From a virus, in UHGV virus genome UHGV-2008342: a stretch of 47,571 nucleotides of DNA, one strand, 5' to 3'. A program made the position numbers and the translations under genes. The first letter of the stretch is position 1; every line of letters begins with the position of its first letter. Shown in pieces: positions 2,621-44,001 of the stretch. The notes beneath the pieces were generated by a model, which did not search any database, was not told the origin of the DNA, and saw only the letters and a list, made by a program, of their open reading frames with translations.

Positions 2621-3211
2621 ATGTCTCGAATTTTTGCTTACTGTCGGATATCAACGCTGGATCAGACCACCGAAAATCAACGCCGGGAAATCGAAAGTGC
2701 AGGTTTTAAAATCAAACCTCAGCAAATAATCGAAGAACACATTAGCGGCTCAGCAGCAACCAGTGAGCGTCCTGGTTTTAACCGGTTGCTTGCTCGCCTG
2801 AAATGTGGTGATCAATTGATTGTGACAAAACTGGATCGCCTTGGTTGTAATGCAATGGATATCAGGAAAACAGTGGAACAACTGACCGAAACAGGTATCA
2901 GAGTGCATTGCTTAGCATTGGGTGGCATTGACCTGACCAGTCCAACAGGAAAAATGATGATGCAAGTAATTTCAGCAGTCGCTGAATTTGAACGAGACCT
3001 TTTACTTGAACGCACTCATTCCGGGATAGTAAGAGCCCGCGGCGCAGGGAAACGTTTTGGTCGACCACCTGTGTTAAATGAAGAACAGAAACAGGTGGTA
3101 TTCGAACGAATTAAGTCAGGTGTAAGTATAAGTGCCATTGCCCGGGAATTCAAAACCTCGCGGCAAACCATTTTAAGAGCCAAAGCAAAACTTCAGACAC
3201 CTGACATATAA
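2621..3211 (+). CDS. pinQ: Pin/Gin/Cin/Hin-family serine DNA invertase
   Basis: 196 aa, N-terminal [15 protein letters not shown] with catalytic serine context, C-terminal HTH. Adjacent to tail-fibre genes as in e14, Qin, Mu and P1. Confidence 0.9.
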
Positions 3212-3308
3212 AAAATAATCTCGGTGTGAGATGCTTTACGTCTTCCAAGCCCCCTTCCTTGCCGTAAATGGAAAGATACATCTAATTATAGAATTTATAT
3301 GTTTTACC

Positions 3309-3884
3309 CTACGGCAGGGCTGGCCATTCAATATCCTGTGCAGTTGACGTATCAACACGGTTCAGCAATACCCGATACTTTTTCCATGCTTCCAGCAACG
3401 AGATTTCTTCCTCCGTTGCAATTTCCAGATCTGCAGCATCCTGAAGCGGCGCAATATGCTCACTGGCTACCTGCATCAGGTTGTTTTTTGTTTCTTCCGC
3501 CTCCCGGATCCGGAACAGTTTTTCTGCTTCCGTATCCTTCACCCAGGCTGTGCCGTTCCACTTCTGAAACTCCCCTTCCGGCGATAACCAGGTAACATTT
3601 TCCGGTAACGGACCGAGTTCAGAAATAAATAACGCGTCGCCGGAAGCCACGTCATAAACCGTTTTACCCCGATGATCTTCAACGAGATGCCACGATGACT
3701 CATCACTGTTGAAAACAGCCACGAAGCCAGCCGGAATATCTGGCGGTGCAATATCGGTACTGTTTGCTGGCAGACCTGTATGAGGCGGAATATATGCATC
3801 ACCTTCACCAATAAATTCATTAGTTCCGGCCAGCAGATTATAAATTTTTATGGTCCGTGGTTGTTCACTCATTCTGAATGCCAT
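3309..3884 (-). CDS. tfa: tail fibre assembly protein (Tfa)
   Basis: 191 aa, Tfa-family sequence; start overlaps the stf stop at 3884. Confidence 0.85.
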
Positions 3885-6800
3885 TATGCAAGCCTCACAA
3901 TATAGTTAAATGCGATGTTTTTGACGGTGTTTTCCGCGTTACCAGCAGCGTTAACGGTGATGGTGTGTCCATGTGAACCAATCGCAACGGAGTGCGTATG
4001 AGCACCAATACCGACAGTATGCGCGTGTGCACCTGCAGATGCTGCTGTGCCGGACAGTGAGTGGCTATGATTACCATCTGTACTGGTATTAGCTAACCAC
4101 CCCGTAGACATACCTACTGAGCCTTGTACACCCCAGGTATTTTGACCTGAGCTTGTATAACCATATTGATAAGTATCTTTAAAAACACTGGGGTTAAATC
4201 GACGGCCATCTCTATGGCTGTGATTACCAGCTGCATTCGTGCTGCCACTTAAACTATGGGTATGCGCACCAGTGTTATTCGTGGATTTAGTGCCGTAATC
4301 AAACGACGATGTGGTTTTCGTCCCCAAATCCGTACTGGATGCGCTGGCGCTGTGGGTATGCGATTTAATGCCGTCCTGTTCCTGAGACAATACGGCCCGA
4401 CCACTGGCAGGTTTGCCCTTAATCGTCCAGCCACGCATATCAGGGATCACGCCTGACGGATAAGCCGCTGCAAGTTTCGGGTATGCAGATTTGTCAAAAG
4501 TCTGCCCCTGCATCAGGGCATAGCCAGACGGAACGGTATCTGATGGCCACGGGATTGGTGCACCGACTGGATAAAACTCTGCAGGAGGATGAGCCGAGGT
4601 GTAAAGCTGCGCCCACGGCGACCAGTTTGCGTCGGTCGTATCCCGTCGTGAACGAATAAATGCCGGAGCATGAGCACCGCTTGTACCACTCCAGCCGATG
4701 AGTAACTCACCTTCGCCAACGGCTGTCATCCCTTTCAGGTGAATGATATTTCCATACGCTGTTGGATATCCGTTGTTATACACCTCGTATAACTCAAGAC
4801 CTGTTGCCCCCTGCGTATTGTCTGTCAGCGCGGTTACCCGACCTTTTGAAGACAGATTAACTGATGATACTGCTGTTCCACCTGACGGTAACGCCCCGAT
4901 CTCTGATGCCGTTGGCTTATTTCTGGAGTTATAGTCCCTTCGCCAGCCAGGTGAATAATCTGTTCCGTGATTAATATAGGTAAACTGGGCGTTAGTTGTT
5001 CCACCACCAGTGGAGGTGGTCGGTGTGGTAATGCGGATCGTCATCGCTGACTTTATCCCCATTACTTCAATGACAGCTCCGGCGAGATGAATATTACCGC
5101 AGTCAGTATCAGTAATGATTTTATTATTGCCATAAGACCAGGAACCCTTGCACATCCAGTAGGGATGGTTAAATGCTCCCTGAGAATCCAGCCACTCGAT
5201 AAACTGTGCAGTCGTCCAGTTTCCTGTTATTGTGCTTACTGACCCACCAAAGGCACGGCAGGCACCAATATTTTTCGTAAAGGTGTCTTTGCCAGGGATA
5301 TCCGCACCGTTCTGATCTTTCTGCAGACGTTTCTCAGCATTGTCATAGGCTGTTTTTACTGCCTTTGGTGTCGCGGCAAGCGTTTCAGACGTGCTGTTGG
5401 TCGCGCTGCTTAGCTGGATTATCCCTTTCTGTGCTGTCGTTGCATCCTGTGCGGTGTATTTCCCGTTAGCCAGGTCATACGCGGCCTTAACGGCTTTTGG
5501 TGTTGCCGCCAGTGACTCGGAAGTGCTGTTAGTCGCACTACTGAGCTGTACTATCCCCTTTTTCGTCGTGCTCGCATCCTCAAGCGCCACGGCGGATGCA
5601 ATATCCTCTGCCCGTTTTGCCGCTGTCTCAGCGCGCGTTGCTGCAGATTCCGCCGTACTTTTGCTCTGAGCTGCTGCCTTCGCACTACCAGCAGCCTCTG
5701 TCGCCTTCGTGGATGCCGTCGTGGCGCTGCCCTTCGCTGCTGACGCCTGTCTGGTCGCCTCATCTTTTGAAGCAGACGCCGATGATGCCGATGACGCCGC
5801 CGAACTGGCGGACGATGCCGCTGCCGTTTTTGAGGATTCTGCACGGGTTTCCGACGCTTTCGCGTTCGTTTCGGATGTCTTCGCTGCGGAAGCTGACCTC
5901 GCTGCTGCCGTGGCCTGCTCAGTGGCTTCGCCAGCCTTCGTTGTGGCTGTTGAAGCGGATGATGCGGCGCTTTCTGCCGATTTTCCGGCGGCGGTGGCAC
6001 TGGCTGAGGCCTGCCCGGCACTTGTTGACGCGGCACTGGCAGACGACGCAGCCGCTGTTTTTGAGCCTGCCGCAGCTGAGGCGCTCTGTCCCGCTGCCGT
6101 CTCAGAAGACCTGGCGTTCGTCTCGGACGTTTTTGCCGCCTTCGCGGAATTTCCTGCCGCCGTTGCCGAGGAAGCTGCGCTACTGGCGCTCAAGGATGCG
6201 TTCGTTTCTGATGATTTCGCTGCCTCTTTTGAGGCCGCCGCATCCCGGGCTGAGGTGGCAGCTTCTGACGCTTTCGTGGTCGCGGTGGATGCAGAAGTGG
6301 CGGCTGATTGTTCTGACGCTGCGGCATTCGTTTCTGACGTTTTCGCCGCACCGGCACTGGTAGCTGCCACGCTTTTTGAGGACTCTGCAGCGGCAGCACT
6401 TTTTGAGGCTTCAGTGGCCTTTGTTGATGCCGTTCCTGCGCTGGAAGACGCTGACTGAGCCGACGAAGCGGCCTGTCCGGCTGACGTGCTGGCTGCACGT
6501 GCTGAATCTGCAGCATCAGTCGCATGGGTTGCCGCCTCACGGGCAGATGTGCTGGCATCACTGGCTGACTTCTTCGCGGCTGCCGTGTTCTGTGCCACCA
6601 CGGACGCGTTACGCGCCACCTCTTCCACCATCAGTTCAAAACGGCGCAGTGCCTCAGGACGGGCATCATCCTCCGTCATGGCACCGAGAAAATCATTCAG
6701 CGTACCGGGTCGGGAATCTTCATACACGGTGATGGTCCCGGCATGTGACGGCGGGAATCCTTCCACCAACAGAATAACGCTGTACTGACCGTACTCAACG

Positions 6801-6961
6801 TCCATGCTGTAACGCCCGGCTTCATCCGGATTTTCTGAGGCCAGCGTGTTCACCACCACCGTGGTGCTGTTACGTTTTGCTTTCAGCTGGATTGTGCAGT
6901 TCTGTACCGGTTTTCCTGTGCCGTCTTTCAGTACACCTGAAATCTTTACTGCCATATTCAC
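3884..6961 (-). CDS. stf: side tail fibre protein (Stf)
   Basis: 1025 aa. Long Ala/Ser/Thr-rich low-complexity shaft and a C-terminal His-rich segment (HSHS...[23 protein letters not shown]). Position after lom as in lambda. Confidence 0.85.
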
Positions 6962-39939: not shown

Positions 39940-40050
39940 TTATGCTCCGTCATGAATTTCATCAGGTGTTGCGTCATCGTCCACTTCGAATACATCCTCA
40001 AAATCTCCACCAGCTATTCCCGTTTCAATAATAATTTTGAACTTTCGCAT
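39940..40050 (-). CDS. candidate 36-aa acidic small protein
   Basis: MRKFKIIIETGIAGGDFEDVFEVDDDATPDEIHDGA with GGTAGTGAA upstream of the ATG. Same strand as the neighbouring small genes. Confidence 0.2.
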   Translation of the reverse strand: MRKFKIIIETGIAGGDFEDVFEVDDDATPDEIHDGA

Positions 40051-40222
40051 TTCACTACCGCCCTTTCGGGCGGCCTCCTGATGTTCTGAGGGTGCAGAAA
40101 TCCATCCGGTTAAGGATTAAGTTTTATTTACAGAACTGAATTTAATTATTCAGATATACGTATCTGTAACCTTACGAATCTACTCACTGGATGCCTCTTT
40201 CATAAAAATAATCCAGTGGGTT

Positions 40223-40669
40223 TTATCGTTTTTTCCCTGTTCGTTGACAGATAACAGGCTTTCTATCTGTCAGTGCCAGAATCTGGCTTACCGGTATTTG
40301 CGTTTCATTCCATTAAAAAATCAGAACGCCGTGCGGCCTCAACACCCGAAAAGCTTCTTTAAATCTCTGTCGCAAATCATCACGCCAGGCATCTTTATTC
40401 AGCCGTCCATATTTCTTTCCCATCCAGGCGTTATCACCAACACGCTCAAGATGCGGAGGGTCTAATACAACCATCGAAAAAGATGCGTCTGCAAATGATA
40501 ATGCACGAAAATCTGCGATAATGTCAGGGCTGATAATCAAGCGTCTCCCATTGCGTAATGTGTATCCTTCTTTTCTGATATCGCTAAATATCGCCCGTTC
40601 GTCAGACTTATCGAACCAGAACATGCGGCTGCCACAGCACATATCAAGAATGGTTGCCGGTGCACTCAC
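40223..40669 (-). pseudogene. SAM-dependent DNA methyltransferase interrupted by an in-frame TAA
   Basis: 118-aa ORF with a DMCCGS motif-I-like segment and a DPPH motif-IV-like segment, ending ...HGVLIF-TAA. The same frame continues WNETQIPVSQILALTDRKPVICQRTGKKR for 29 codons. Confidence 0.55.
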
Positions 40670-41088
40670 TGCGCCACGTCCTGAAAATTACCCTGATAGA
40701 AAGCCAGTATGCGCTGCATAACTTCGCTCTTCCGGCACTCGCGACAGATTATGTTTAGGCGACTGTCGTAGCGACGTATTTCTCCGTCAGGTGATGACCA
40801 GATAAGGTCCGGATCAACCACAGCAGGTTTCTTCACCTTTGCCCTCGAGAGTTTTTTGCGGGCGTTTTGCCAGTCCTTACGCGCCTGTTCAGAGGGGAAT
40901 AACCCGTAGCCGGAGTTGTATACATCGCCACTGGCTACCAGCTCTCTGGCAAGAACGCTCATCAGATATCTAGTCGCACCTGTTTTAGCTTCCAGTTGCC
41001 GTAACGTCTCACGGCCGCTCTGGCGCACGAGTTCCACCACCTGCCATTTAATTTTTTCCCGCTCTTCTTGTGTAAAAACTTTTGCCAC
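40666..41088 (-). CDS. hypothetical protein (140 aa) immediately downstream of the O-like gene, in the position of a helicase loader
   Basis: MAKVFTQEEREKIKWQVVELVRQSGRETLRQLEAKTGATRYLMSVLARELVASGDVYNSGYG... No Walker motifs, so not P-like or DnaC-like. Confidence 0.5.
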   Translation of the reverse strand: MAKVFTQEEREKIKWQVVELVRQSGRETLRQLEAKTGATRYLMSVLARELVASGDVYNSGYGLFPSEQARKDWQNARKKLSRAKVKKPAVVDPDLIWSSPDGEIRRYDSRLNIICRECRKSEVMQRILAFYQGNFQDVAQ

Positions 41089-41128
41089 AAGTCCCCCTTA
41101 AAATTACCTCATGACCTGAAATCAACAC

Positions 41129-42148
41129 TTATCCTCTGAAACCAGGCGGAATTTCTGTATCCGGTTCAGAAATATGATTAACACAACGCTGCACAGGTGA
41201 ACGTCCCAGGCGGATGACCAGTTCGTCCCATTTTTCGCGGAGCTTTGACGGGCTCATGATGTTTTTTACCCAGAATGGATCTCGCTGAACCCGACCAAAC
41301 ATTTCGCAAATTTGTCTGTGGCTTCTGCCATCCAGCATCCGCATTGTGCGCACGTCATTGGCCCAGGCAGTCCAGTTAGGCTCTTTTGGTCGCATGATCT
41401 CGCCATCATCACTGGCTGCCTGTTCGTAGAGACCCACGATCCGCCCCCAGATCCACTGCGCACACGCCAAATCCTCCCTGCTACCCCACTGGCGTTTTTT
41501 CGCACTAAACACAACCGCGTCGGAGTTCCGGGTTAAAAAATCCTGTTCAGTCGTCTGCGGGTCCGGTTGCGAAGCTTCCGGACGAAAAGTGTTTTTATTC
41601 TCTGTAGTAATCTCTGTTGTATTCTCTGTAAGATCATCAGGCCATTTTGACCCGATGACATTGGGTCGTTTTGAACCAATGGAGCGTTTCATTTTGACCT
41701 CTTCCATCGTGTCATTTTGACCTGATGGAGCGGCGCATTTTGAACCGATGGATTCGCTCAATTTGCCACCATCTAAAAGCTCGCTCCCATAGTTGATCGT
41801 GTAGAAATTGGTCATATCGCGCTTTGATTTATTGAGCTTTTCACAACGCAAAAGCCCCAGCGTTTTCAGACTTGCAAACGCGCGCTTTAACGTTGACTCT
41901 GACCAGAATGGGAACTGTTCCAGCCATTGTTCCGTTGTGTTATAAATCCAGCGAACACCATCACATTCCATGCCGGAGTTGGTATCTCTCAACCAGTAGT
42001 GCAGTTGTTGCAAAACAATGGCTTCGTTTAAGCCAATTTTCATTGCCAGCTGCGTGTTTATAACCAGTGGGCGTTCAGCAAAAAGAAGGCTCATAATTCC
42101 ATCCAGCTTTTTGTTGGTATTGCTGTCGATACGCAAGCTTGAAAGCAA
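41129..42148 (-). CDS. replication initiator, lambda O-like replisome organiser
   Basis: 339-aa ORF in the lambda O position. Iteron-type direct repeats and an AT-rich tract lie inside the coding sequence. Start may be an internal Met (MSLLFAERPLV at 42094). Confidence 0.65.
   Translation of the reverse strand: MLSSLRIDSNTNKKLDGIMSLLFAERPLVINTQLAMKIGLNEAIVLQQLHYWLRDTNSGMECDGVRWIYNTTEQWLEQFPFWSESTLKRAFASLKTLGLLRCEKLNKSKRDMTNFYTINYGSELLDGGKLSESIGSKCAAPSGQNDTMEEVKMKRSIGSKRPNVIGSKWPDDLTENTTEITTENKNTFRPEASQPDPQTTEQDFLTRNSDAVVFSAKKRQWGSREDLACAQWIWGRIVGLYEQAASDDGEIMRPKEPNWTAWANDVRTMRMLDGRSHRQICEMFGRVQRDPFWVKNIMSPSKLREKWDELVIRLGRSPVQRCVNHISEPDTEIPPGFRG
41585..41780. repeat. ori: candidate origin of replication: 5-6 iterons with a roughly 24-bp period plus an adjacent AT-rich tract with short repeats
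   Basis: Repeats CCATTTTGACCCGATG / GTCGTTTTGAACCAATGGAG / TTCATTTTGACCTCTTCCATCG / GTCATTTTGACCTGATGGAG / GCATTTTGAACCGATGGA at 41641-41760. Then TTCTCTGTAGTAATCTCTGTTGTATTCTCTGTAAG at 41585-41640. Confidence 0.65.
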
Positions 42149-42596
42149 TTGCTTTTTCTATAAGTTCGTCAGTTTCACGATCCACTACGGCAGGATCAGC
42201 AAAAAGCAGTCCGGACTCCACCACATCGCCATATTCTTTGTTTAACCCGGCGATCATGCACGTGATGCTTTTTCCGTCAGTAATTTCACGATACAACCTG
42301 AAATCACTAATCCGGATAGCCTCCATAATCGCAGGCACTAGCGCCGTGAACTTTTCACGCTTATCCCTGGTGTCGATAGCCTTCCAGCGTTCGAATATCT
42401 TCACTCGATTAACACCAAGCGCTCGCTGATCAACCGCGCCACCTTCATCTGTGACACGCTGAACATCGATGTTCGGGCGCTCTTTCAAAGCCCAGAATGC
42501 TTCAGTGATTAATATCGTCGCCTGCTCCTGTGTCATTCCTGGTCGACATATCCAGGCATCCAGAGCCTCACGAGCCTGTTCAGGAGTGATTTTCAT
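42075..42596 (-). CDS. early protein in the cII/YdaT position between the cro-like gene and O
   Basis: 173-aa ORF MKITPEQAREALDAWICRPGMTQEQATILITEAFWALKERPNIDVQRV... Its length (96+77) suggests it is the intact form of the K-12 ydfX/ydfW fragments; that is inference. Confidence 0.5.
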   Translation of the reverse strand: MKITPEQAREALDAWICRPGMTQEQATILITEAFWALKERPNIDVQRVTDEGGAVDQRALGVNRVKIFERWKAIDTRDKREKFTALVPAIMEAIRISDFRLYREITDGKSITCMIAGLNKEYGDVVESGLLFADPAVVDRETDELIEKAIAFKLAYRQQYQQKAGWNYEPSFC

Positions 42597-42810
42597 TGTT
42601 CAACCGCCCCGCCCGCTTCGTCTTACGATATTCATCATAAACTTTGGGATCATACTGAAGCTCCCCGCCAGATGCCTCCTGTAGACGCATCGCGCGACCT
42701 TCGGGAACTAAATCCCCTTTCCAGCTATAAAGCGAAGCCAAACGAATACCTGCTGCTTGTGCAAGTTTTGTTTTTGAACCGAAATACAAAAGAGCGTCAG
42801 TTTTAAGCAT
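42580..42810 (-). CDS. dicC: DicC, cro-like regulator
   Basis: 76 aa MLKTDALLYFGSKTKLAQAAGIRLASLYSWKGDLVPEGRAMRLQEASGGELQYDPKVYDEYRK. Divergent from dicA. Confidence 0.85.
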   Translation of the reverse strand: MLKTDALLYFGSKTKLAQAAGIRLASLYSWKGDLVPEGRAMRLQEASGGELQYDPKVYDEYRKTKRAGRLNNENHS

Positions 42811-42893
42811 TTAAAACACCTTTATTGTTAGTCATAACTAACAAGATAGATGTTAACAAAAACATAGTCAATACGATTTAGCATTAGCTAACT
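42811..42893. promoter_or_regulatory. dicA-dicC divergent promoter and operator region
   Basis: Perfect 20-bp palindrome TTGTTAGTCATAACTAACAA at 42825-42844 and palindrome TTAGCATTAGCTAA at 42878-42891. A related half-site TGTTAGTCAT lies downstream of dicA near 43372. Confidence 0.6.
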
Positions 42894-43301
42894 ATGGAAA
42901 CAAAAAATTTAACTATCGGCGAACGCATCAGGTATCGTCGGAAAAACCTCAAACACACCCAAAGGTCTCTTGCTAAAGCCCTGAAAATCTCCCATGTGTC
43001 TGTATCACAATGGGAACGGGGTGATAGTGAACCTACAGGGAAGAACCTTTTTGCCCTCAGCAAAGTATTGCAATGCTCACCAACATGGATTCTATTTGGC
43101 GATGAAGACAAGCAACCAACACCACCTGTTGAGAAGCCAGTTGCCTTATCCCCCAAAGAACTAGAGCTCCTTGAGCTGTTTAATGCACTGCCAGAATCAG
43201 AACAGGATACCCAGCTCGCCGAAATGCGAGCTCGAGTAAGAAACTTCAATAAACTCTTTGAAGAATTACTAAAAGCCCGTCAGCGGACAAATAAAAGATA
43301 A
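42894..43301 (+). CDS. dicA: DicA, HTH-XRE repressor
   Basis: 135 aa METKNLTIGERIRYRRKNLKHTQRSLAKALKISHVSVSQWERGDSEPTGKNLFALSKVLQCSPTWILFG. Confidence 0.9.
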   Translation: METKNLTIGERIRYRRKNLKHTQRSLAKALKISHVSVSQWERGDSEPTGKNLFALSKVLQCSPTWILFGDEDKQPTPPVEKPVALSPKELELLELFNALPESEQDTQLAEMRARVRNFNKLFEELLKARQRTNKR

Positions 43302-43467
43302 CATCATCAATGAGTTATCTTTTACCACATCAATTATGTTAGCTATAGCATACAAAATCACTTGACCGATATGTTAGTCATGGCTAATCTTGTTTGCATC
43401 AACACACCGCACGGTGTTCTCAGCAAACAGTTCCGCTACCCCAGCGTTAAGGGGAAATGAGGTCAGC

Positions 43468-43623
43468 ATGGATACTATCGATCTTGGCAACAACGAATCT
43501 CTGGTGTACGGCGTGTTTCCAAACCAGGACGGTACGTTCACCGCGATGACGTATACCAAAAGCAAAACGTTTAAAACCGAAAATGGTGCCCGTCGCTGGC
43601 TGGAAAGAAACTCAGGTGAGTGA
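43468..43623 (+). CDS. ydfA: YdfA
   Basis: 51 aa MDTIDLGNNESLVYGVFPNQDGTFTAMTYTKSKTFKTENGARRWLERNSGE. ATG at 43468 with a GGGGAAATGAGG SD. Confidence 0.8.
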   Translation: MDTIDLGNNESLVYGVFPNQDGTFTAMTYTKSKTFKTENGARRWLERNSGE

Positions 43624-43624
43624 T

Positions 43625-43753
43625 ATGGATTTCGACACAATCATGGAAAAGGCTTACGAAGAATACTTCGAAGGTCTTGCCGACGGCGAAGAAGCTCTCA
43701 GCTTCAACGAATTTAAACAGGCGCTTTCCAGTTCGGCAAAATCTAACGGCTGA
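43625..43753 (+). CDS. ydfB: YdfB
   Basis: 42 aa MDFDTIMEKAYEEYFEGLADGEEALSFNEFKQALSSSAKSNG. Starts 2 nt after the ydfA stop. Confidence 0.75.
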   Translation: MDFDTIMEKAYEEYFEGLADGEEALSFNEFKQALSSSAKSNG

Positions 43754-43782
43754 TAAGCGAAACAGCACCGCGAGGAATCAGT

Positions 43783-44001
43783 ATGCAGAAACGAGAACCC
43801 GTCATCATCGCGCCAGACTATACCGATGATGAACTTTATGAGTGGATGCGCCAGAAAATTAATGCAGCGCAGGATCTGAAATGGGCCAATGAAGCCAGGG
43901 CTAAGCAGGCTGAAAATCTGTCCGCTCTGGAGCAGGATATCACCAGGCTGGAAAAAGCAGCGGCATTAAGCATTGCAAGAATGATTACATACCCACGTTA
44001 A
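43783..44001 (+). CDS. ydfC: YdfC
   Basis: 72 aa MQKREPVIIAPDYTDDELYEWMRQKINAAQDLKWANEARAKQAENLSALEQDITRLEKAAALSIARMITYPR. Confidence 0.8.
   Translation: MQKREPVIIAPDYTDDELYEWMRQKINAAQDLKWANEARAKQAENLSALEQDITRLEKAAALSIARMITYPR

What the first reader, a model, noticed from the sequence alone, without database searches (positions are those of the whole stretch)
41585..41780. Iteron array and AT-rich tract inside the O-like gene: probable ori
Five to six direct repeats of CATTTTGACC-N-GATGGAG type with a roughly 24-bp period sit inside the O-like coding sequence, followed in the direction of transcription by an AT-rich tract with its own short TCTCTGT repeats. This mirrors the lambda ori-within-O arrangement. 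The iteron sequence differs from lambda, implying a distinct initiator specificity.
Basis: seen in the sequence. Interest (0 to 1): 0.45.

Follow-up and report, generated by a model that had tools for sequence, protein, structure and literature searches.

The report
Prophage replication origin inside initiator gene
The repeats are real and almost certainly mark the replication origin of a lambda-like prophage, lying inside its own initiator gene; this is a classic arrangement with new binding sites, and the same origin sits unannotated in about a third of complete E. coli genomes.

Summary
Six direct repeats (five good, one degenerate) lie inside the O-like gene (41129-42094, minus strand). 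Each has a 13-bp dyad core, GGTCAAAATGACC. Spacing is 23, 23, 23, 23 and 24 bp, not about 24 throughout.

Downstream in the direction of transcription come three 12-bp TACAGAGAATAC repeats. They form the least stable 40 bp of the gene. A short palindrome follows, so the element extends to about 41561.

The repeat cores fall in all three codon phases, so they are not an amino-acid repeat. Synonymous sites are much more conserved here than in the N-terminal domain.

The N-terminal domain is predicted to be a winged helix whose nearest solved structures are RepA_N plasmid initiators. Among relatives, its predicted recognition helix changes together with the repeat half-site.

The interpretation (an origin of the lambda ori-within-O type, with a different specificity) is supported by sequence and comparison only. 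No origin function was tested.

It is a new member of a known kind. Two side findings are more unusual:
- The 12-bp tract is shared by at least eight initiator families.
- This initiator ends in a copy of the host DnaT C-terminal tail, and the phage has no lambda-P-type loader.

The parts
41129..42094 (-). O-like replication initiator gene (321 aa; ATG at 42094; the open frame runs up to a TTG at 42148).
   Evidence: ORF list. PHROG 391, E 1e-91. The same CDS is annotated 'DNA replication protein O' in phage PhiR42_1, which is 99.8% identical. No Pfam or NCBIfam family covers it.
41780..42094 (-). N-terminal winged-helix domain (about aa 1-105), the predicted iteron-binding domain.
   Evidence: AlphaFold2 with a 56-sequence alignment: pLDDT 85.4, with an H-H-beta-beta-H-H-wing topology. 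The top Foldseek PDB hits are RepA_N initiator N-terminal domains 4pql, 4pt7 and 5kbj (TM 0.57-0.64, E 2e-3 to 2e-2); the other hits are mostly winged-helix DNA-binding regulators. The predicted recognition helix co-varies with the iteron half-site.
41756..41768 (-). Iteron 1 core, degenerate (TGGCAAATTGAGC).
   Evidence: It lies in 23-bp register with the others. Relatives have a better copy, GAGGTCAAAGTGA, at this position.
41733..41745 (-). Iteron 2 core (GTTCAAAATGCGC).
41710..41722 (-). Iteron 3 core (GGTCAAAATGACA).
41687..41699 (-). Iteron 4 core (GGTCAAAATGAAA).
41664..41676 (-). Iteron 5 core (GTTCAAAACGACC).
41640..41652 (-). Iteron 6 core (GGTCAAAATGGCC), flanked by TCATC...GATGA.
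41591..41634 (-). Low-stability, purine-strand-biased tract holding three 12-bp repeats TACAGAGAATAC (41596-41631). This is the proposed DNA unwinding element.
   Evidence: 29.5% G+C. The least stable 40-bp duplex of the gene starts at 41592. The repeats are shown. Third-codon-position identity among homologs is 0.94, against 0.53 in the N-terminal domain. Glu codons are GAG 37 of 37 and Thr codons ACA 55 of 75. The same 40 bp is 97.5% identical in Stx-phage O genes that are otherwise unrelated.
41561..41583 (-). Imperfect palindrome GTCCGGAAGC-TTC-GCAACCGGAC on the far side of the tract.
   Evidence: Read from the sequence. It forms a DNA hairpin of -7.2 kcal/mol, z -1.97. It is conserved as GTCCGGTTGC-N3-GCAACCAGAC in relatives whatever their C-terminal domain. 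The Edwardsiella relative L011 carries GAATTCTGGCGAATCC, the centre of lambda's own palindrome.
41213..41506 (-). C-terminal domain homologous to the C-terminal domain of lambda O.
   Evidence: BLASTP against lambda O: 34% identity over 148 aa, E 1e-26. PHROGs 2357 and 277.
41132..41194 (-). C-terminal 21 residues, VQRCVNHISEPDTEIPPGFRG, resembling the last residues of host DnaT.
   Evidence: phmmer against PDB chains 2ru8, 6aep and 9zbt (DnaT): 14 of 21 residues identical and C-terminal in both proteins. NCBIfam NF002770 positions 160-179.
42843..42871 (-). pR-like sigma-70 promoter upstream of cro-like (42580-42810), cII/YdaT-like (42075-42596) and the O-like gene.
   Evidence: Consensus scan, TTGACT-17-TATCTT. 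Pfam P22_Cro and YdaT; PHROG 'CII-like'. This is a consensus match only.

Best explanation
This is the vegetative replication origin of a Qin-like lambdoid prophage, embedded in the linker-coding part of its own initiator gene. The proposed mechanism has four steps.

1. Transcription from a pR-like promoter runs through cro, a cII-like gene and the O-like gene.
2. Dimers of the initiator's N-terminal winged-helix domain bind six 23-bp-spaced iterons. Each is an imperfect 13-bp dyad, GGTCA-AAA-TGACC, with a central A-tract. Together they build a wrapped nucleoprotein complex like the lambda O-some.
3. The strain opens the adjoining low-stability tract of three TACAGAGAATAC repeats, which is bounded by a palindrome.
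4. The C-terminal domain, which resembles that of lambda O, then brings in the host helicase. No lambda-P-type loader gene exists in this phage, so I propose this happens through the DnaT-like C-terminal tail.

Shown here: the sequence anatomy, DNA-level conservation, the predicted fold, covariation between the recognition helix and the iteron, and the absence of P. Inferred: binding, unwinding, helicase recruitment and origin activity.
For: Statistics of the array.

Not an amino-acid repeat: the cores fall in three codon phases. By contrast, the tail-fibre repeats elsewhere in the window have periods that are multiples of three.

DNA-level constraint: third-codon-position identity among 11 homologs is 0.53 in the N-terminal domain, 0.78 in the iteron cores, 0.71 in the spacers and 0.94 in the tract. 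Codon choice in the tract is GAG 37 of 37 and ACA 55 of 75.

The array travels with the N-terminal domain:
- Homologs sharing the N-terminal domain keep the 23-bp array of TCAAAATG-type cores whatever their C-terminal domain.
- Loci with a lambda-O-like C-terminal domain but a different N-terminal domain lack it.
- A Bacillus relative keeps GTTCAAAATGA at a 22-23 bp period, and a Deferribacterales relative has GTGCAAAATGACC ten times at 21 bp.

Covariation within the family:
- helix SESTLKR with GGTCAAAATGAcC
- helix SSDTVKRAL with GgGCAAaTTGCaC
- helix SEKTVKRAL with GGACAAATTGTCC

Fold: winged helix, closest to RepA_N initiators, including a Rep-DNA complex. The pSK41 Rep protein likewise binds boxes placed centrally in its own gene (PMC5703833).

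The layout matches the annotated lambda iterons, AT tract and palindrome.

Gene context: cI, cro, cII-like, O.

No P or phage helicase homolog: annotation of the 99.8%-identical phage and tblastn on the window, best E 2.1.
Against: No experimental data on binding, unwinding or origin function exist for this replicon in anything I could search.

Weak points in the evidence:
- The tract is only moderately AT-rich: 29.5% G+C, and its least stable 40 bp ranks in the top 1.7% of the window, so it is not the extreme.
- The tract has a period of 12 and always reads Thr-Glu in one frame, so selection on a Thr/Glu-rich linker peptide cannot be excluded by phase. Only the codon bias argues for a DNA-level role.
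- Iteron 1 is degenerate in this window.
- The palindrome is weak here (z -1.97).
- Foldseek E-values are marginal (2e-3), and no Pfam family covers the N-terminal domain.
- The homologs used for the conservation and covariation counts are related to each other, so those counts are not independent events.
- How a helicase is loaded without P is conjecture.
- The prophage may be partly decayed; its near-identical relative PhiR42_1 carries transposase genes a few kb downstream of O.
Confidence: 0.85

Rival explanations
1. The periodicity comes from a repeated peptide motif (SIGSK and similar) in a flexible linker and has no role as DNA.
For: The peptide SIGSK/VIGSK recurs three times, and the region is a low-complexity linker that AlphaFold2 predicts as unstructured.
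Against: The DNA core appears in all three codon phases. It encodes GSK, GQN or VKM depending on phase. The period of 23 is not a multiple of 3. Third codon positions are much more conserved here than in the folded N-terminal domain, 0.78 against 0.53. True peptide repeats in the window's tail-fibre gene have periods of 9, 21 and 42.
Confidence: 0.02
2. The repeats are binding sites for the initiator, but they serve autoregulation, copy-number control or exclusion of related phages rather than initiation. The true origin would lie elsewhere.
For: Iterons in plasmids also act in handcuffing and autorepression. In lambda, cloned ori copies inhibit phages with the same replicon (abstracts of PMC3349717 and PMC4488673). 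Nothing here measures initiation.
Against: The array is immediately followed by the least stable duplex of the gene and by a palindrome. This is the oriLambda order. The whole three-part unit is conserved as a block across hosts and phyla. No second repeat array of comparable strength exists in the window: lag 23 at 41645 gives the strongest self-match of any lag from 8 to 60.
Confidence: 0.07
3. It is an inactive relic of an origin in a decaying cryptic prophage. It is recognisable but no longer used.
For: The prophage is Qin-like (dicC, relBE, flxA, ydf genes). Qin in E. coli K-12 is cryptic (my knowledge). There is no helicase-loader gene. Iteron 1 is degenerate.
Against: The O-like ORF is intact. 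The segment is 95% or more identical in 1722 records from E. coli genomes and carries conserved synonymous sites. Near-identical genomes are deposited as complete phages: PhiR42_1, HannyBb and mEp460_ev081. The loader-less arrangement is systematic, not a local loss: 41 of 45 initiators with a GFRG tail have no P or phage helicase next to them.
Confidence: 0.06

Closest known systems
Bacteriophage lambda ori within gene O (O-some origin)
   Same: Iterons with internal dyad symmetry and a central A-tract, spaced 20-24 bp apart. They lie in the linker-coding middle of the initiator gene and are followed by an AT-rich, purine-strand-biased tract and then a palindrome. The C-terminal domains are homologous (34% identity, E 1e-26). 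The gene order is cI, cro, cII-like, O.
   Different: There are six iterons rather than four, with a regular 23-bp spacing. The core is GGTCAAAATGACC rather than TCCCTCAAAACGAGGGA. The N-terminal domain shows no detectable similarity to that of lambda O or to Pfam Phage_rep_O. The AT tract is built of 12-bp TACAGAGAATAC repeats. There is no P gene, and the protein ends in a DnaT-like tail.
Stx-phage origins (P27, 933W) with six iterons
   Same: Six iterons inside O (abstract of PMC7466680). Several Stx phages in GenBank share the 40-bp TACAGAGAATAC tract at 97.5% identity.
   Different: The Stx O gene that shares the tract (Stx2_EH2201) has different iterons (GGGAAAC-type), unrelated N- and C-terminal domains, and is followed by a phage helicase gene.
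RepA_N plasmid initiators (pSK41 Rep)
   Same: The N-terminal winged helix is the closest solved fold (4pql, 4pt7, 5kbj). The binding boxes lie centrally within the initiator's own gene, the central linker is encoded by the origin, and a separate C-terminal domain recruits host proteins (PMC5703833).
   Different: There is no sequence-level match to Pfam RepA_N. The context is a phage, not a plasmid. The C-terminal domain is of the lambda O type. The pSK41 origin has four Rep boxes.
E. coli DnaT (primosomal protein I)
   Same: The last 21 residues are 14 of 21 identical to the DnaT C-terminus...SEPD(S/T)(Q/E)IPPGFRG, and are C-terminal in both proteins.
   Different: Nothing else matches. The NCBIfam DnaT model scores 16 bits against a cut-off of 201. 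The RAST label 'Primosomal protein I' on the phage homologs is therefore a mis-transfer based on the tail alone.

Membership tests
Lambdoid origin within the initiator gene (oriLambda type) | Array of four or more direct repeats at roughly two-helical-turn spacing inside the initiator coding sequence. | tested here: met
   Six cores at 23, 23, 23, 23 and 24 bp inside 41129-42094.
Lambdoid origin within the initiator gene (oriLambda type) | Each iteron has internal dyad symmetry. | tested here: met
   The consensus is GGTCA-AAA-TGACC. The left half-site is nearly invariant and the right half is 50-100% conserved per position. Relatives have a perfect GGACAAATTGTCC.
Lambdoid origin within the initiator gene (oriLambda type) | AT-rich, easily melted region directly after the iterons in the direction of transcription. 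| tested here: met
   41591-41634 has 29.5% G+C. The least stable 40 bp of the gene starts at 41592.
Lambdoid origin within the initiator gene (oriLambda type) | Palindrome beyond the AT-rich region. | tested here: met
   41561-41583, weak in this window (z -1.97) but conserved in relatives. L011 carries the centre of lambda's palindrome.
Lambdoid origin within the initiator gene (oriLambda type) | Initiator N-terminal domain of the lambda O family (Pfam Phage_rep_O). | tested here: not met
   No Pfam hit at E <= 0.01. hhalign against the lambda O N-terminus gives probability 0.1%.
Lambdoid origin within the initiator gene (oriLambda type) | Initiator C-terminal domain homologous to that of lambda O. 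| tested here: met
   34% identity, E 1e-26.
Lambdoid origin within the initiator gene (oriLambda type) | Adjacent P-type helicase-loader gene. | tested here: not met
   The next gene is DUF977/Ren-like. There is no P or helicase homolog in the window or in PhiR42_1.
Lambdoid origin within the initiator gene (oriLambda type) | Supports initiator-dependent replication in vivo. | not testable with these tools
   This needs a cloning or replication assay.
RepA_N-type initiator with origin in its own gene | RepA_N N-terminal domain. | tested here: inconclusive
   The closest solved folds are RepA_N N-terminal domains (TM 0.57-0.64, E 2e-3 to 2e-2), but there is no Pfam RepA_N sequence match.
RepA_N-type initiator with origin in its own gene | Initiator binding sites located centrally in the rep gene, encoding a linker. 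| tested here: met
   The iterons encode aa ~110-152, between the two folded domains.
DnaT (primosomal protein I) | Full-length match to the DnaT equivalog model. | tested here: not met
   NF002770 scores 16.2 bits against a cut-off of 201; only positions 160-179 match.

The most novel reading that the evidence does not exclude
Two linked ideas go beyond the finding itself.

(1) The TACAGAGAWTAC 12-mer tract may be a sequence-specific, interchangeable 'opening and loading' module, not just AT-rich DNA.
- It follows the iterons of at least eight unrelated initiator N-terminal domain families in viral contigs.
- It recurs in phages of Enterobacteria, Bacillus/Niallia and Deferribacterales.
- Its codon choice is fixed.
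- Each unit puts a CTG on the non-coding strand. CTG is the preferred start triplet of E. coli DnaG (my knowledge, not tested).

(2) The last few residues of these initiators may act as a code for which helicase-delivery route is used.
- A tail copied from host DnaT (IPPGFRG) goes with no phage loader.
- Tails of the ...WENTL or lambda type go with a P gene.
- Tails ending in an aromatic residue go with a phage helicase.

This would mean that a very common E. coli prophage replicon borrows the host restart machinery, or whatever DnaT's tail binds, in place of P.
Probability: 0.35. Interest if true: 0.65.

Novelty: new member of a known kind. Interest (0 to 1): 0.42.

Why it matters
The origin-within-initiator design is textbook, so the finding itself mainly fills an annotation gap. 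This origin and its initiator occur in 1977 of 5426 complete E. coli genomes. There the gene is called 'hypothetical protein', or wrongly 'primosomal protein I', and no Pfam or NCBIfam model covers its DNA-binding domain.

Knowing the iteron specificity groups would help predict replicon incompatibility and exclusion among lambdoid prophages. Three groups appear in this family: GGTCA, GGGCA/GTGCA and GGACA half-sites.

If the side observations hold, they give a directly testable route to two questions:
- How do phage initiators without a loader recruit DnaB?
- What does the conserved C-terminal tail of DnaT bind?

How DnaT recruits DnaB/DnaC is described as still unknown in the 2026 preprimosome structure paper (PMC13377028).

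Tried and rejected
- Pfam and NCBIfam on the O-like protein gave nothing useful apart from the DnaT tail.
- A sequence search of the PDB with the full protein and with an N-terminal domain profile gave only the DnaT tail and an insignificant PadR-like match, E 0.42.
- A profile comparison of the N-terminal domain with the lambda O N-terminus showed no similarity.
- Single-sequence AlphaFold2 of the whole protein was unusable, pLDDT 41. The N-terminal domain with an alignment worked.
- Rfam at E <= 0.1 on 40000-44000 found nothing.
- Literature searches found no paper on this replicon. Terms tried were the phage names, phage initiators with a DnaT-like tail, the TEITTE/TENTTE peptide and the 12-mer DNA. 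The library lacks most subscription journals, so this is absence in that library only.
- I looked in the 2026 preprimosome paper for a stated partner of DnaT's extreme C-terminal tail and found none.
- I considered an IHF site in the tract by eye and rejected it, because there is no WATCAA core.
- A GATC at the iteron-tract junction is not conserved; L013 and L019 have GTTC there. I dropped a Dam-control idea for that reason.
- My first clustering of viral N-terminal domains at loose thresholds merged everything. I redid it at 35% identity or more over at least 80 aa.
Full report
**1. What is in the sequence**

The finding lies inside an ORF on the minus strand (41129-42094, ATG at 42094, 321 aa). 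On the coding strand the region reads as follows:

...GGTGGCAAATTGAGCGAA TCCATCGGTTCAAAATGCGCCGC TCCATCAGGTCAAAATGACACGA TGGAAGAGGTCAAAATGAAACGC TCCATTGGTTCAAAACGACCCAA TGTCATCGGGTCAAAATGGCCTGA TGATC TTACAGAGAATACAACAGAGATTACTACAGAGAATAAAAACACTTTTC GTCCGGAAGCTTCGCAACCGGAC

- There are six 13-bp cores, at 41756-68, 41733-45, 41710-22, 41687-99, 41664-76 and 41640-52. Spacing is 23, 23, 23, 23 and 24 bp.
- The consensus core GGTCA-AAA-TGACC is a dyad with a central A-tract.
- Tandem Repeats Finder reports period 23, 3.7 copies, and a second array of period 12, 2.7 copies, at 41599-41630.

**2. Is it more than chance?**

- The exact 8-mer TCAAAATG occurs four times in the 47.5-kb window on both strands. 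All four are in this array and in one orientation.
- All three exact GGTCAAAATG 10-mers are here too.
- I compared the sequence with itself at every lag from 8 to 60 in 115-bp windows. The single strongest signal in the whole window is lag 23 at 41645: 68 matches against a mean of 29.1 and sd 5.1, z = 7.6.
- The runners-up are lags 21, 42, 54 and 57 near 5775. They lie in the 1025-aa tail-fibre ORF and are in-frame peptide repeats. This is a useful internal contrast.

**3. DNA repeat or peptide repeat?**

The cores start in codon phases 1, 0, 2, 1, 0, 0. The same DNA therefore encodes GSK, GQN or VKM depending on phase.

Conservation at third codon positions, among 11 homologs from Escherichia, Klebsiella, Citrobacter, Enterobacter, Raoultella, Trabulsiella, Edwardsiella and Izhakiella:

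| Region | Third-position identity |
|---|---|
| N-terminal domain | 0.53 |
| Iteron cores | 0.78 |
| Iteron spacers | 0.71 |
| 37-nt tract | 0.94 |

Codon choice in the tract against the N-terminal domain:

| Codon | Tract | N-terminal domain |
|---|---|---|
| Glu = GAG | 37 of 37 | 63 of 108 |
| Thr = ACA | 55 of 75 | 19 of 102 |

The constraint is therefore on the DNA.

**4. The gene and its neighbours**

- The order is a cI-like repressor (42894-43301, +), a pR-like promoter (42871-42843, -), cro-like (42580-42810), cII/YdaT-like (42075-42596), the O-like gene, a DUF977/Ren-like gene (40666-41088) and a methyltransferase fragment.
- The O-like protein matches PHROG 391 'replication initiation O-like', E 1e-91.
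- Its C-terminal part is 34% identical to the C-terminal domain of lambda O, E 1e-26.
- Pfam and NCBIfam have no model for it.
- Public sources mostly call it 'hypothetical protein'.
- The window is 99.8% identical here to Escherichia phage PhiR42_1, from ECOR13. That phage is Qin-like and lambdoid, with lambda-type structural genes.
- The 231-bp origin segment is found in 1977 of 5426 complete E. coli genomes.

**5. The DNA-binding domain**

- With a 56-sequence alignment, AlphaFold2 predicts residues 1-110 at pLDDT 85.4 as helix-helix-beta-beta-helix-helix-wing.
- The best Foldseek matches in the PDB are N-terminal domains of RepA_N plasmid initiators: 4pql, 4pt7 and the Rep-DNA complex 5kbj (TM 0.57-0.64). 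The E-values are marginal (2e-3 to 2e-2). The other matches are mostly winged-helix DNA-binding regulators.
- The parallel is close. In pSK41 Rep, the N-terminal domain binds four boxes placed centrally in the rep gene, and the origin-encoded middle of the protein is a dispensable linker (PMC5703833).

**6. Comparative evidence that the N-terminal domain reads the repeats**

- Homologs that share the N-terminal domain keep five or six cores at 23 bp, whatever their C-terminal domain.
- Loci that share only the lambda-O-like C-terminal domain lack the core.
- The N-terminal domain reaches other phyla, and the array comes with it:
  - a Bacillus locus has GTTCAAAATGA four times at 22-23 bp;
  - a Deferribacterales locus has GTGCAAAATGACC ten times at 21 bp.
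- Within the family, the predicted recognition helix and the half-site change together:
  - SESTLKR... with GGTCAAAATGAcC
  - SSDTVKRAL... with GgGCAAaTTGCaC
  - SEKTVKRAL... with the perfect dyad GGACAAATTGTCC
- These sequences are related to each other, so the counts are not independent events. The pattern is nonetheless what a dimeric reader of a dyad predicts.

**7. The tract and the palindrome**

- The tract 41591-41634 has 29.5% G+C. The least stable 40-bp duplex in the gene starts at 41592 and ranks in the top 1.7% of the window. It is clearly soft but not extreme.
- It has 66% purines on the coding strand, as lambda's tract does.
- The palindrome 41561-41583 folds weakly here (-7.2 kcal/mol, z -1.97). 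It is conserved as GTCCGGTTGC-N3-GCAACCAGAC in relatives.
- The Edwardsiella relative carries GAATTCTGGCGAATCC, identical to the centre of lambda's own palindrome.
- So the order is the same as in lambda: iterons, AT tract, palindrome.

**8. Mechanism**

The best-supported reading is a lambda-type origin.
- Initiator dimers occupy the six phased, A-tract-containing dyads.
- The DNA is wrapped and strained.
- The 12-mer tract opens.
- The C-terminal part of the initiator delivers the host helicase.

Only the anatomy, the conservation and the fold are shown here. Binding, melting and loading are inferred.

The step that departs from lambda is loading. Neither the window nor PhiR42_1 has a P, DnaC-like or DnaB-like gene (tblastn best E 2.1).

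**9. Side observations (partly followed)**

*(a) A DnaT-like tail.* The protein ends VQRCVNHISEPDTEIPPGFRG. This is 14 of 21 identical to the C-terminus of E. coli DnaT as found in PDB chains 2ru8, 6aep and 9zbt.

Tail type against the neighbouring gene, across the initiator loci classified:

| Tail type | Neighbouring gene |
|---|---|
| GFRG (DnaT-like) | 41 with no P or helicase-like hit, 4 with a helicase-like hit, none with P |
| ...WENTL or lambda-like | 6 of 6 followed by a P-like gene (four checked in Pfam: Phage_lambda_P, E 1e-57 to 1e-62) |
| Ending in ...KLTF, ...NFNW, ...SYWD | Mostly a phage helicase |

The same lambda-O-like C-terminal domain occurs with either tail (L010 and L023 against this window). 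The tail, not the domain, therefore tracks the partner.

- In all but a few hits it lies inside an initiator-like ORF.
- The 111 hits with enough upstream sequence fall into at least eight N-terminal domain clusters. Five of the eight cluster representatives gave a tandem repeat of their own type upstream.
- An Stx-phage O gene shares 40 bp of the tract at 97.5% identity and nothing else.

The tract therefore behaves as an interchangeable module and as a mosaic joint.

I found no paper on either point in the searchable library.

**10. Verdict**

It is a new, uncharacterised member of a well-known kind of origin. As an origin it is ordinary. It is of moderate interest because it is so widespread yet unannotated, and because of the loader-less DnaT-tail arrangement and the shared 12-mer module.

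Noticed in passing
window 41132-41194 (-); also L012, L013, L017-L020 and about 45 viral loci: The initiator ends in a near-copy of the host DnaT C-terminal tail (SEPDTEIPPGFRG). Initiators with this GFRG tail are never followed by a lambda-P gene. Those ending ...WENTL or with a lambda-like tail always are (6 of 6). Tails ending in an aromatic residue go with a phage helicase.
   Followed up: partly
window 41596-41631; L004 2005-2060; L024, L025, L029; viral loci L033-L152: The 12-bp unit TACAGAGAWTAC (always read as Thr-Glu-x-Thr) follows the iterons of at least eight different initiator N-terminal domain families, in phages of distant hosts. Synonymous codons are fixed. Each unit places CTG on the non-coding strand.
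   Followed up: partly
window 41555-41785: This origin segment is present in 1977 of 5426 complete E. coli genomes. RefSeq labels the gene 'hypothetical protein', and RAST-annotated phages call it 'Primosomal protein I', apparently because of the tail alone.
   Followed up: yes
L029, L030, L031 (Deferribacterales MAGs), about 2980-5360: These are proteins of about 800 aa with two tandem copies of the same N-terminal winged-helix domain. They are followed by 6-10 repeats of 21 bp and a shorter ACAGAGACTA tract, then a long unrelated Cys-rich C-terminal region.
   Followed up: no
window 3884-6961 (-), repeats near 5733-5835: The second-strongest self-similarity in the window (lags 9, 21, 42, 54, 57) lies in the 1025-aa side-tail-fibre ORF. 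All the periods are multiples of three, so it is a peptide repeat.
   Followed up: partly
window 42075-42097: The cII/YdaT-like ORF overlaps the start of the O-like gene by about 20 nt. Some database entries (P0001, 448 aa, on 56 contigs) carry a YdaT Pfam domain fused to a 100%-identical O-like sequence. This suggests a frameshift or a call of a fused ORF in some genomes.
   Followed up: no
window 40313-40669 (-): The methyltransferase ORF after the DUF977 gene is only 118 aa, with partial Methyltransf_11 and Methyltransf_25 matches. It looks truncated. Relatives carry full Dam-type methylases at this position (L002, L003).
   Followed up: no
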